DNA of 64,000 nucleotides from a virus (Duplodnaviria > Caudoviricetes): positions 128,001 to 192,000 of the IMG/VR virus record IMGVR_UViG_3300037721_000031; one strand, given 5' to 3'. Shown here piece by piece: positions 20,517 through 39,088 of this stretch (positions within the stretch are counted from its first letter, which is position 1; every line of letters starts with the position of its first letter). A program made the translations under genes and the position numbers. The notes under the pieces were generated by a model. The model saw only the letters and a list, made by a program, of their open reading frames with translations. It was not told the origin of the DNA and made no database searches.

Positions 20517-20661
20517 TATCAATACTTCCTTTTCTTCTTTATTTATTATTATTTTCATCATGAGAATAAATTCTAGTAATACAGCTATTGCATTACTCAG
20601 GATTGTAATATGTATCTGAAACAAAATTCATTAGAGTATAAAAGACAGCATAAAAAAGTAT

Positions 20662-30877: not shown

Positions 30878-30947
30878 TTTATCCTCACTATGAGTCTGGT
30901 TACAATCACACTATTGCCATTTATAACATAAAAAAATTTTAACAGAA

Positions 30948-30976
30948 AAGAGGATGGGAGTTAATCCCATCCTCTT
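30948..30976 (-). terminator. Rho-independent terminator closing the 31-kb noncoding region
   Basis: aagaggatggga-gttaa-tcccatcctctt with a U-rich tail on the minus strand. Confidence 0.8.
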
Positions 30977-30989
30977 CCTGCCTACTACC

Positions 30990-37836: not shown

Positions 37837-38790
37837 TGGATTCGATGATAAAAGAAATAGTGACGGCCACGACACTGAACAATCGTCAGCGCTGCCGTCT
37901 CTACCCATAACAGGCAGCTTTACTTCCACTAAGACCAACTATGGTCTTAGTGGAAGTGGATTGTCGATCACATTCCCAATTGTAGTCAGGAATTATCAGC
38001 TCTGGCCAGATCCCTCCGGACAGCATTTGACATCATGTCTTGTGGACTAGACATCAAATAAAAGGCCATACACACAGGTCCCAGAATACTAACCTAAATC
38101 TCAGAGAACTTCTGATGAGGCTACCAACCTCAGCACTCTCACGAGTGTCAGACTCTTGCAAGATCTAATAGCTAAATATTCCTGGAGTCAAGATGATGGA
38201 AGAATATGATTAAAGTCATACCCGTATTCGTCTGTGGATGGCGAAACTGTTTACATCTATCGGATAAAAGACTACGTACAGACTCATTACTGTTACTCGG
38301 CTGTAGTATTACCGGCAACGTGTTTATCACTACGCTACCGATTCTATAAGCCTACATATTTGCCTGTACGTAGTAAAAACTGTTGAAAACACAATCTCAG
38401 TATCACGAGTAAATCTCGCCGTCTCGAAACGGCAAGACTGGTTGTTCGAGCAACCATCCAATATAAAGCTTCAGCAATATACCGAACAACTCATGATCTA
38501 GAGGCTGCATTCTCGAACCATTAGTTTAGTGGCTTCAACACTTGCGACTTTCGTCCAAGCTCCACCCTGCATCACCTAGGTTCAGACTTACAACTTGGCA
38601 GAAACAAGGAGTACCACCCCCTACGAATCTACCCATAGTGTTTCGATTAGTTGGTGCTAATCATCAGACCATATACCGTATTGAGAGTCTCAGTGTGTGT
38701 CTCCTGGACACACAACTCTCATAGTACATGACTCTTTAACACTTAAGATCAAATGACTCTCGGAAATACTCTCTGAGTCGTCTAACAAAT
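37837..38790 (-). ncRNA. Candidate large ornate structured ncRNA (~950 nt)
   Basis: No credible ORF; 16-bp hairpin 37922-37957; 11-bp long-range helix 38271-38281/38364-38374; GNRA-capped stems on the minus strand; possible 3' CCA at 37837. Confidence 0.55.
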
Positions 38791-39088
38791 TATAATGAGT
38801 TCGAATATTTTCTTACACATTTCAATCAAGAACAGCATACTTCTACACTATTCCACTTATGTCATATGTGTTTGAAATTTCTTTGATTCAAGAAATAAGA
38901 TACAGATAACCAGCGAATGCTGTTAGACAAACAATCTTGACATAATGTTTACGGAGGATACCGTTAGCAGCCACCAATGTCAATCCACAGATATTTTTAC
39001 CAACCATAATTACAGTCTTAGTCAAACTCATTTCGTTGTGCATATGCATCCTTAAGAGTACTGCAGTAGATTACTAGCTATTACTTCA

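What the first reader, a model, noticed from the sequence alone, without database searches (positions are those of the whole stretch)
37837..38790. Second ~950-nt ornate ncRNA candidate at the head of the tRNA cluster
Seen: no credible ORF; a 16-bp perfect hairpin (37922-37957); an 11-bp long-range helix (38271-38281/38364-38374). Minus-strand stems include GAC-GAAA-GTC, CACTC-GTGA-GAGTG, GCCGT/ACGGC, GGTTG/CAACC and a GAGAGT/ACTCTC stem enclosing TGTGTGTC/GACACACA. TATGGGTAGA occurs twice (~37905 and ~38630), and the putative 3' end reads ...GAATCCA just before tRNA-Ser. It shares no obvious sequence with the 31-kb element, so it would be a separate family.
Basis: partly seen in the sequence, partly recalled or inferred. 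Interest (0 to 1): 0.75.

Follow-up and report, generated by a model that had tools for sequence, protein, structure and literature searches.

The report
New giant RNA in jumbo phage
The gene-free kilobase at the head of this giant phage's tRNA cluster encodes a real, elaborately folded non-coding RNA that matches no catalogued family. It is built from exchangeable folded domains, its function is unknown, and it carries two perfectly matching loops that could let copies join hand in hand.

Summary
Window 37826-38887 has no coding signal. Its minus strand folds far better than shuffles (z about -7 to -8.6; ten coding controls -0.5 to -3.8).

Seven homologous stretches (five distinct lineages) from related uncultivated phiKZ-like phages keep the helices through compensatory changes. 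In the core, 15 of 100 pairs are compensatory, against 1-4 with slid partners. No Rfam family matches in the window or in the relatives, so this is an uncatalogued RNA family.

The RNA is longer than reported, about 38855 to 37826. It starts behind a promoter-like motif that recurs before 11 other minus-strand gene starts. It ends at a terminator-like hairpin or at tRNA-Ser.

The 5' half is a conserved core. The 3' half is a string of domains that relatives gain, lose, swap or move. One module also occurs in the neighbouring group-I-like RNA.

The only two fully invariant hairpin loops, CUCGAA and UUCGAG, are exactly complementary. They sit on directly abutting hairpins, which suggests pairing between molecules. 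This is inferred, not shown.

The GAAUCCA 'CCA end' is not conserved, and no supported helix joins the two halves. Function is unknown. By size and setting the nearest analogues are GOLLD and ROOL.

Earlier scan notes cover only this same genome.

The parts
38860..38877 (-). Promoter-like motif TTTCA-N3-ACATAT-N-ACA directly upstream of the RNA
   Evidence: 12 sites with at most 1 mismatch in the 266-kb genome. All are on the minus strand and intergenic. The other 11 lie 60-180 nt upstream of an ORF. The motif is conserved in all homologues. Function as a promoter is inferred.
38830..38853 (-). 5' hairpin (e38-47/e52-61), likely the first structure of the transcript
   Evidence: 10-bp hairpin kept in all lineages, with one compensatory change in L009.
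38755..38779 (-). Hairpin A1 with invariant UAUU apical loop
   Evidence: The stem is completely replaced by a different complementary stem in L009, and changes G-C to A-U in L008. The loop is invariant.
38633..38747 (-). Domain A: three-way junction with a closing helix (AGUGUU/AACACU), a variable arm Y (38666-38735) and a conserved hairpin Z (38645-38662)
   Evidence: Hairpin Z has two independent compensatory changes. The base of arm Y covaries (win/L026/L009), while its tip is swapped for domains of 70 to about 250 nt in relatives. Junction strands are invariant.
38597..38633 (-). Hairpin A' (GGUAGA/UCUGCC), containing the first UAUGGGUAGA copy
   Evidence: Compensatory U-G to G-U and A-U changes at one pair.
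38515..38586 (-). Domain B0 with a GAAA-capped hairpin (38540-38560); its fold is less certain
   Evidence: The GAAA hairpin is replaced by a different hairpin in a soil metatranscriptome contig and by the whole C-type module in L009. Two alternative outer pairings exist.
38385..38514 (-). Domain B: a 24-bp helix closing a tight four-way junction of three hairpins. Loops CUCGAA (38445-38450) and UUCGAG (38423-38428) are invariant and complementary.
   Evidence: Compensatory changes occur in the long helix and in all three hairpins, four of them in hairpin Hc of L026. Covariance model R1 scores 182.6 bits on the minus strand against 30.3 on the plus strand.
38271..38374 (-). GCCGAGUAACA
   Evidence: The closing helix is kept in L008 and L026. 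The domain is expanded in L008/L031, absent at this site in L009 and present there at another site. The L008/L031/L009 versions are about 78-80% identical over 99-128 nt to window 35002-35128.
38065..38242 (-). Domain D, closed by an 11-bp long-range helix; contains a GUGA (GNRA) hairpin and a 7-nt-loop hairpin
   Evidence: L009 shows 3 + 2 + 3 + 1 compensatory changes across its helices. The whole domain is absent in L008, between 12-nt direct repeats CUUUUAUYYGAU.
38024..38060 (-). Hairpin E1, an insertion hot spot
   Evidence: The tip carries roughly 170-410 extra nt in L027 and L026 and 736 nt in a root-metagenome relative (table 5).
38002..38023 (-). Hairpin E2
   Evidence: Compensatory changes in L008 and in L009.
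37922..37957 (-). 16-bp perfect hairpin (variable module)
   Evidence: Present as described. It is replaced by unrelated sequence in L026/L027, and by 127 nt in two metagenome relatives.
37862..37917 (-). 3' hairpins (second UAUGGGUAGA copy; GACGGC...GCCGUC stem) followed by a U-rich tract: terminator-like
   Evidence: Nearly identical in win, L008 and L026/27. L009 instead ends in a different 11-bp hairpin plus a U-rich tail and has no tRNA. The terminator role is inferred.
37826..37861 (-). A/U-rich conserved tail up to the tRNA
   Evidence: Conserved in sequence among close relatives, with no supported pairing.
37736..37825 (-). tRNA-Ser(UGA) directly downstream; its 5' processing would set a 3' end for the RNA
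   Evidence: ARAGORN and Rfam. Present at the same place in L008. A divergent tRNA-like copy is present in L026 (37.7 bits to the tRNA-Sec model), and none in L009.

Best explanation
This is the gene for a roughly 1.03-kb, multi-domain structured non-coding RNA of an uncatalogued family. The family is confined to a small clade of uncultivated phiKZ-like jumbo phages.

Shown:
- It is non-coding.
- The minus strand is the folded strand.
- Many helices are kept by compensatory substitutions.
- The 5' half (domains A, A', B0, B) is a conserved core.
- The 3' half is a chain of independently closed domains that relatives gain, lose, swap or relocate.

Inferred:
- It is transcribed from its own phage-type promoter (38877-38860) as the first product of the minus-strand tRNA/RNA island.
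- Its 3' end is made by the terminator-like hairpin near 37862, or by RNase P cutting at the 5' end of tRNA-Ser.
- It then acts in trans as a stable RNA scaffold, in the manner of the phage tRNA-island RNAs GOLLD and ROOL.

Most likely mechanistic feature:
- The two invariant 6-nt loops of domain B (CUCGAA and UUCGAG) are exact complements.
- They sit on directly abutting hairpins, so they should not be able to pair within one molecule.
- They would therefore pair between molecules, hand in hand as in phi29 pRNA, giving dimers, rings or larger assemblies.
- The exchangeable 3' domains would be peripheral decorations or binding sites.

My confidence by part:
- Real structured RNA gene: about 0.9.
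- One functional trans-acting RNA: about 0.5.
- Self-association through the twin loops: about 0.25.
For: Folding:
- z is -8.6 (37826-38800) and -7.2 (the whole gap) on the minus strand, against -5.6 and -5.8 on the plus strand.
- Coding controls give -0.5 to -3.8.

Non-coding status.

Homologues:
- They lie at the syntenic place in five lineages, found through the flanking 86-aa and 107-aa proteins.
- Alignments are A2 and A3.

Covariation:
- RNAalifold on e226-515 gives 97 pairs, 14 of them with both-side changes.
- My recount gives 15 of 100 pairs. Slid 3' partners give 1-4, and 500 permutations give 5.4 +/- 1.6 (maximum 12). 95.8% of cells are paired.
- Domain D helices carry 9 more compensatory positions in L009.

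Strand: model R1 scores 182.6 bits on minus against 30.3 bits on plus.

Promoter-like motif:
- 12 sites, all on the minus strand and all intergenic.
- 11 sites precede ORFs. This one precedes the RNA.

Twin loops:
- They are the only fully invariant hairpin loops.
- They are the only loop pair with 5 nt or more of complementarity.
- Their stems covary and the linker between the hairpins is 0 nt.
- The pair is unique in the genome.

RNA presence:
- A soil metatranscriptome contig matches 38570-38760 with 2 differences.
- In that contig the next hairpin is replaced by a different hairpin.

Context resembles GOLLD and ROOL: phage-encoded, next to tRNA islands, 600-800+ nt, assembling through RNA-RNA contacts (PMC12286853, read).
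Against: - No RNA-seq reads could be laid, so transcription, ends and abundance are not shown.
- The metatranscriptome evidence is one contig, and DNA carry-over is possible.
- No supported helix links the 5' core to the 3' half. The two predicted long-range helices (e7-14/e1033-1040 and e296-306/e904-913) are broken in relatives.
- Whole domains are dispensable in some relatives. L008 lacks domain D, and L009 lacks domain C at its usual site.
- The twin loops are invariant, so there is no covariation to prove that they pair. The same invariance would arise if each bound a protein.
- The argument that they cannot pair in cis rests on geometry, not on a model.
- The family is small (five lineages plus a few sequencing runs), which limits statistical power.
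Confidence: 0.5

Rival explanations
1. It is an array of independent RNA modules. The stretch would be part of the long tRNA-island transcript and consist of separately folding, separately evolving domains. These could be stabilisers, processing signals, or individual protein-binding or decoy hairpins. They would be cut apart or act one by one, with no common architecture.
For: - No supported inter-domain helix exists. Each domain has its own closing helix.
- Domains are deleted, inserted, swapped or moved between close relatives.
- Domain C recurs inside a different RNA at 35002-35128.
- Short contigs from other habitats carry one domain with unlike flanks.
- An earlier follow-up reached the same reading for the 31-kb element (e1-5381526).
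Against: - The order and sequence of the 5' domains A, A', B0 and B are kept in all five lineages, with invariant junction strands and 0-2-nt linkers.
- A C-type module is retained in four of the five lineages, at a different position in L009. L026/27 carry an unrelated module in the same closing helix. This retention looks more like a required part of one RNA.
- One promoter-like motif and one terminator-like end frame the whole element.
Confidence: 0.27
2. It is a cis-acting leader. The structured RNA would be a giant 5' leader controlling transcription read-through, processing or stability of tRNA-Ser and the downstream genes of the island.
For: - It lies between a promoter-like motif and tRNA-Ser.
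- The 3' end has mutually exclusive pairings (GCUGCC/GGCAGC versus GACGGC/GCCGUC) followed by a U-rich tract. This is the layout of an attenuator (read from the sequence).
Against: - About 1 kb with at least 9 domains is far beyond any known leader.
- L009 has the RNA but no tRNA behind it.
- No T-box or riboswitch model matches.
- The alternative 3' pairings show no covariation.
Confidence: 0.1
3. It is a ribozyme or a relic of a self-splicing intron, such as a divergent group I or II intron or a new catalytic RNA. The neighbouring 35-kb element would be a parallel case.
For: - The neighbour at 35173-35694 gives a weak group I match (22.8 bits, E 0.024) and shares domain C with this family.
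- HNH homing endonuclease genes lie nearby.
- The element has an invariant CUGAUGA ... hairpin ... GAAAC stretch and GNRA loops.
Against: - No group I, group II, hammerhead or other ribozyme model matches the element at E<=10, in the window or in relatives.
- The hammerhead-like stretch has two extra nucleotides (UC) between stem II and GAAA, and its GA pairs with that UC.
- There is no interrupted host gene or exon-like flanks.
- R- and S-like words occur in the wrong order and in variable parts.
Confidence: 0.06
4. It is a DNA-level feature, such as a hairpin-rich recombination or replication region or homing-endonuclease scar tissue, with no RNA function.
For: Mosaic replacement of segments next to HNH genes. 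The plus strand also folds better than shuffles (z -5.6).
Against: - The helices contain many conserved G-U pairs, which would be A-C mismatches on the other strand.
- The minus strand is about 70-90 kcal/mol more stable than the plus strand.
- The covariance model scores 182.6 against 30.3 bits.
- Compensatory changes preserve pairing in the sense of the surrounding genes.
Confidence: 0.04

Closest known systems
GOLLD RNA (Rfam RF01998)
   Same: Phage-encoded, at least 800 nt, next to or interleaved with tRNA genes. One half is conserved and the other variable. Function is unknown. It assembles by RNA-RNA contacts (PMC12286853).
   Different: - No covariance-model match, even at E<=10.
- Here the 5' half is conserved and the 3' half variable, the reverse of GOLLD.
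- The host phage is a phiKZ-like jumbo phage.
- Multimer formation is untested.
ROOL RNA (Rfam RF03087)
   Same: A large ornate RNA of phages and prophages, often near tRNA islands. No protein partner is known. It forms cages through intermolecular contacts (PMC12286853).
   Different: No model match. The secondary structure is unrelated, and this RNA is nearly twice the size.
   Same: A phage RNA with two loops that are complementary to each other but pair only between molecules, giving rings. This comes from established knowledge and from reference 35 of PMC12286853. The twin 6-nt loops here have the same logic.
   Different: pRNA is about 120-170 nt, uses 4-nt loop pairs and is tied to the packaging motor. 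There is no sequence or model match here. The pairing here is only predicted.
Stable RNAs of the phage T4 tRNA cluster (species 1 and 2, rnaC/rnaD)
   Different: Those are about 120-140 nt single-domain RNAs. This one is about 1 kb with at least 9 domains.
Neighbouring group-I-like RNA at window 34831-35794
   Same: Same transcription direction and the same RNA island. It shares the domain-C module (about 78-80% over 99-128 nt with the L008/L031/L009 versions).
   Different: That element gives a weak group I match. This one gives none, and the rest of the two RNAs is unrelated.

Membership tests
GOLLD (RF01998) | Match to the family covariance model | tested here: not met
   No hit at the gathering score or at E<=10 in the window, and none at E<=5 in four relatives' loci.
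GOLLD (RF01998) | Universally conserved 3' region with a variable 5' region | tested here: not met
   Here the 5' half (e100-510) is conserved in all lineages and the 3' half is variable.
GOLLD / ROOL (shared context) | Phage-encoded, adjacent to a tRNA island | tested here: met
   The record is a 266-kb phiKZ-like virus. tRNA-Ser is directly downstream, and the element heads a cluster of 8 tRNAs.
GOLLD / ROOL (shared property) | Homo-oligomeric cage held by intermolecular RNA contacts | not testable with these tools
   Only a lead exists: invariant complementary loops CUCGAA/UUCGAG on abutting hairpins.
ROOL (RF03087) | Match to the family covariance model | tested here: not met
   No hit.
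Group I intron (RF00028) | Catalytic core (P3-P9 with a G-binding P7) recognised by the model; flanking exons | tested here: not met
   No hit in 37826-38890 at E<=10, although the same search detects the neighbour at 35173-35694. No interrupted gene surrounds the element.
Group II intron (RF00029 and domain models) | Domain V hairpin with the AGC triad, a 2-nt bulge and a GNRA loop | tested here: not met
   No model hit. The GAAA hairpin at 38540-38560 has only 5+3 bp with a 1-nt bulge, and it is replaced in relatives.
Hammerhead ribozyme (RF00008, RF00163 and others) | CUGAUGA - stem II - GAAA core around a three-way junction with a cleavage-site triplet | tested here: not met
   CUGAUGA, a covarying hairpin and GAAAC are present and invariant. 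However, two extra nucleotides (UC) separate stem II from GAAA and pair with the GA of CUGAUGA. The other junction strands have the wrong lengths, and no model hits.
tRNA-like RNA with a CCA end | Conserved 3' CCA on an acceptor-like stem | tested here: not met
   GAAUCCA becomes GAAUUCA in L008 and GAAUUGA in L026/27. It lies 11 nt before the tRNA in an unpaired tail. ARAGORN and Rfam find no tRNA or tmRNA in the element.
Csr/Rsm-type protein sponge RNA | Many GGA motifs exposed in hairpin loops | tested here: not met
   There are 11 GGA against 16.7 +/- 3.6 expected. Only three are predicted to be mostly unpaired, and one of those lies in a variable arm.
   Complementary loops are present and invariant, but no Rfam family matches and pairing is untested. 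This is an analogy, not membership.

The most novel reading that the evidence does not exclude
This is a third, unrelated family of giant phage tRNA-island RNAs, and the first in nucleus-forming phiKZ-like jumbo phages. Its exchangeable outer domains, one of them shared with a neighbouring group-I-like RNA, would be swapped between phages as cassettes.
Probability: 0.15. Interest if true: 0.85.

Novelty: new variant of a known kind. Interest (0 to 1): 0.62.

Why it matters
Only a handful of natural RNAs of about 1 kb with extensive conserved structure are known. Two of them, GOLLD and ROOL, are also phage RNAs next to tRNA islands and were recently shown to build RNA-only cages of unknown purpose.

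A third, unrelated family in the same genomic setting would suggest that giant RNAs beside phage tRNA clusters are a recurrent solution to a problem not yet understood. Finding it in a quite different phage group, one that builds a nucleus-like compartment, would broaden that point.

This family offers two concrete handles. One is a pair of invariant, mutually complementary loops that can be mutated and restored. The other is natural variants that lack or relocate whole domains, which mark what is core and what is decoration.

Tried and rejected
Searches that found nothing:
- Rfam at gathering and at permissive thresholds, on the window and on relatives: only tRNAs.
- blastn 'distant' of the element against 50,697 phage records: no match.
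- Exact-pattern scans with a 23-mer and an 18-mer in viral contigs: no match.
- A 17-mer in viral contigs gave 5 loci, none homologous by nhmmer.
- An 18-mer in metagenome contigs gave 6 chance matches.
- The twin-loop pattern gave 0 matches in viral contigs and 22 in genome contigs, all rejected by model R1.
- Model R1 finds no copy in three more distant jumbo-phage records or elsewhere in this genome.
- Loci of more distant relatives of the 86-aa protein have no similar sequence and no comparable ORF-free gap.
- No relative of the 107-aa protein was found in viral contigs.

Ideas rejected:
- Csr/Rsm sponge: GGA is not enriched.
- Hidden coding region or alternative genetic code.
- Conserved micro-ORF.
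- Hammerhead reading of CUGAUGA...GAAAC.
- Group I R/S-like words: wrong order, and in variable parts.
- 11-nt GAAA receptor reading of UAUGG: the partner strand lacks CCUAAG.
- Paired 5' and 3' ends: e7-14/e1033-1040 is broken in relatives.
- Conserved CCA end.

Other points:
- Flanking proteins have no informative Pfam or PHROG family.
- In read laying the RNA-library runs gave no cover over the flanking genes. This is only absence of contigs and is not used as evidence.
- I did not use the count of structure pairs, because it needs a typed structure string. The equivalent controls were computed.
Full report
**Setting**

The window is bases 128001-192000 of a 266,566-bp virus record with 98% estimated completeness. 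Its RNA-polymerase beta-like protein is at most 43% identical to those of Ralstonia, Burkholderia, Xanthomonas and Klebsiella phiKZ-like jumbo phages. It is therefore an uncultivated, distant member of that group.

Genes around the finding run on the minus strand. In transcription order they are:
- a 107-aa ORF (39412-39089);
- a 53-aa hydrophobic ORF (39049-38888);
- the ORF-free stretch;
- tRNA-Ser(UGA) (37825-37736);
- an 86-aa ORF (37716-37456);
- an HNH endonuclease gene.

**The observation**

This covers the 16-bp hairpin, the long-range helix (13 bp rather than 11), the named stems and the duplicated UAUGGGUAGA.

The stretch is not coding:
- The longest ORF is 60 aa.
- No long frame opens under any reassignment of stop codons.
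- Substitutions against three relatives show no codon periodicity.
- No ORF is conserved in length or frame among homologues.

The minus strand of 37826-38800 folds to -337 kcal/mol, against -270 +/- 7.8 for dinucleotide shuffles (z -8.6). The plus strand gives z -5.6 and is about 70 kcal/mol weaker. The whole gap gives z -7.2. Ten 1-kb coding segments of the same genome give z between -0.5 and -3.8.

**Homologues**

DNA searches of phage records and pattern scans of the public collections found nothing real. Relatives of the two flanking proteins led to JGI metagenome contigs with the same gene order and an ORF-free gap of 1.0-1.8 kb. These are L008 (=L028), L009, L026 and L027, plus the partial L030 and L031.

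Identity to the window:
- L008 and L031: about 89-90% in the 5' half.
- L026, L027 and L030: about 84%.
- L009: about 70%.

The first 200 nt of the gap (39088-38888) evolve like a gene and keep one frame and one stop codon, so the 53-aa ORF is real. Conserved non-coding sequence starts right behind its stop. In what follows, e-coordinates count along the minus strand, with e = 38891 minus the window coordinate.

**Covariation**

On the alignment of e226-515 (A3), RNAalifold predicts 97 pairs, and 14 of them keep pairing through changes on both sides.

My own count on the same alignment gives 15 of 100 pairs, with 95.8% of cells paired. Sliding the 3' partner by one to three columns gives 1-4 compensatory pairs. 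Across 500 within-column permutations the mean is 5.4 +/- 1.6 and the maximum 12.

Helices with compensatory support:
- hairpin Z (e229-246), with two independent events;
- e258-263/289-294;
- the 24-bp helix e377-402/481-506;
- the three hairpins it encloses, including four changes in one hairpin of L026;
- in the 3' half, e649-659/814-826 (three changes, spanning 165 nt), e668-689, e705-731/789-812, e744-757 (GUGA to GUAA, so the GNRA loop is kept) and e868-889.

Many conserved pairs are G-U, which would be mismatches on the other strand. A covariance model of domain B scores 182.6 bits on the minus strand and 30.3 on the plus strand. The folded molecule is therefore minus-strand RNA, not DNA.

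**Anatomy**

In order along the RNA:
- a 5' hairpin;
- a variable leader;
- hairpin A1, with an invariant UAUU loop and a fully replaced stem in L009;
- domain A, a three-way junction with invariant junction strands, one conserved hairpin and one arm whose tip ranges from 70 to about 250 nt among relatives;
- hairpin A';
- domain B0;
- domain B, a long helix closing a tight four-way junction;
- domain D;
- hairpins E1, E2 and the 16-bp hairpin;
- two 3' hairpins and an A/U-rich tail.

The two predicted helices that would tie the ends or the halves together (e7-14/e1033-1040 and e296-306/e904-913) are broken in relatives. So the supported picture is a chain of independently closed domains with very short linkers.

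**Modularity**

Laying contigs of other sequencing runs on the locus showed a relative from a root metagenome. It is about 92-95% identical in blocks, but has whole segments replaced:
- the 16-bp hairpin is replaced by 127 nt;
- the tip of E1 is replaced by 736 nt;
- the interior of domain C is replaced by 110 nt;
- the tip of arm Y is also replaced.

The fetched homologues show the same pattern:
- L008 lacks domain D between two copies of a 12-nt direct repeat.
- L026 and L027 carry roughly 410 and 170 extra nt in E1.
- L009 lacks domain C at its usual site but carries the same module in place of the GAAA hairpin of B0.
- L026 and L027 carry a different, unrelated module inside the domain-C closing helix.

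The domain-C module has the motif pair GUAGGCUUA.AGA ... GCCGAGUAACA around a 1x5 internal loop, with a covarying closing helix. It also occurs at window 35002-35128, inside the neighbouring RNA that gives a weak group I match. Folded modules are therefore exchanged between positions and between different RNAs of the island.

**Ends**

At 38877-38860 lies TTTCA-N3-ACATAT-N-ACA. The genome has 12 sites with at most one mismatch. All are on the minus strand and all are intergenic. Eleven lie 60-180 nt upstream of an ORF, and this one lies upstream of the RNA. The motif is conserved in all homologues. I read it as a promoter for a phage polymerase, which is an inference.

At the 3' end, a G+C-rich stem (37862-37899) is followed by a U-rich tract and then by tRNA-Ser. 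L009 ends instead in a different hairpin plus a U-rich tail and has no tRNA. The RNA therefore probably ends at a terminator-like hairpin, or at the RNase P site of the tRNA, giving about 1.0 kb.

**Transcription**

Only indirect evidence exists. A soil metatranscriptome holds a third of the sampled words of the core. Its 233-nt contig matches 38570-38760 with two differences. The contig then continues with a different hairpin in place of the GAAA hairpin, between conserved flanks. This fits an expressed relative, but DNA carry-over cannot be excluded.

**What it is not**

No Rfam family matches the element in the window or in relatives, even at permissive thresholds. Specific readings tested and rejected:
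- The invariant CUGAUGA-hairpin-GAAAC looks like a hammerhead core, but it has two extra nucleotides that pair with the GA, and it has wrong junction lengths.
- The GAAA hairpin is too short for a group II domain V, and it is replaceable.
- GGA motifs are fewer than expected.

**The twin loops**

Among 23 hairpin loops, only two are invariant in all seven sequences: CUCGAA (38445-38450) and UUCGAG (38423-38428). They are also the only loop pair with five or more complementary bases, and they are exact 6-nt complements. Their stems covary, and the two hairpins abut without a linker in a four-way junction.

Six-base loop-loop helices stack end to end between their stems. Two hairpins joined base to base therefore should not reach each other within one molecule.

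This is a prediction. Invariance alone would also fit protein binding.

**Verdict**

A real, previously uncatalogued, roughly 1-kb structured RNA gene occurs in a narrow clade of phiKZ-like phages. It has a conserved 5' core and a cassette-like 3' half. By size and setting it resembles GOLLD and ROOL, but it is not a member of either family. Function is unknown. The best-supported working model is a stable trans-acting scaffold RNA that may self-associate through the twin loops. The main rival is an array of independent modules within the tRNA-island transcript.

Earlier notes of this scan concern only this same genome. No look-alike on other DNA was on record.

Noticed in passing
window 38888-39049 (minus): A 53-aa hydrophobic ORF directly upstream of the RNA. 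A 47-53-aa ORF sits at the same place in every relative and evolves like a coding sequence. It has no family match.
   Followed up: partly
genome-wide; in the window at 20621, 30194, 38877 and 50037 (minus): A promoter-like motif TTTCA-N3-ACATAT-N-ACA has 12 sites with at most 1 mismatch. All are on the minus strand and intergenic, and they are often followed by a hairpin. It is probably a promoter class of this phage.
   Followed up: partly
window 35002-35128 (minus): A module of about 125 nt inside the group-I-like RNA is about 78-80% identical over 99-128 nt to domain C of this family's relatives (L008, L031, L009). It is a folded RNA cassette shared between different large RNAs.
   Followed up: partly
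window 30878-31863 and 34461-35743; genome 48176-49029 and 240540-241280 (outside the window): Four further ORF-free gaps of 0.7-1.3 kb fold far better than shuffles (z -5 to -10). The two outside the window were not examined further.
   Followed up: no
window 36929-37004 (minus): Rfam calls a tRNA here (51.4 bits) that ARAGORN does not report.
   Followed up: no
L026:6227-6313: At the place of tRNA-Ser, L026 and L027 have a divergent tRNA-like sequence with an encoded CCA. ARAGORN misses it, and it scores 37.7 bits against the tRNA-Sec model.
   Followed up: no
window 38024-38048: A root-metagenome relative carries 736 extra nt in the tip of hairpin E1. This is long enough for a small gene such as a homing endonuclease. 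The contig could not be fetched.
   Followed up: no
window 38259-38270 and 38054-38065 (minus): A 12-nt direct repeat, CUUUUAUYYGAU, flanks domain D. L008 has one copy and no domain D, which suggests gain or loss by recombination between the repeats.
   Followed up: partly
L009:5700-5830 and L026:5830-5990 (approximate): By eye, a second module is shared at different positions in two relatives (CUACCGAA ... UUUAAACCCG ... GGAAACGAGAUCC). It has no Rfam match, and blastn did not report it.
   Followed up: no
window 38116-38132 (minus): A conserved hairpin in domain D has a 5-bp stem and the 7-nt loop UUGGUAG, with U at loop position 2 and a purine at position 6. This is the shape of a tRNA anticodon arm and may be chance.
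   Followed up: no
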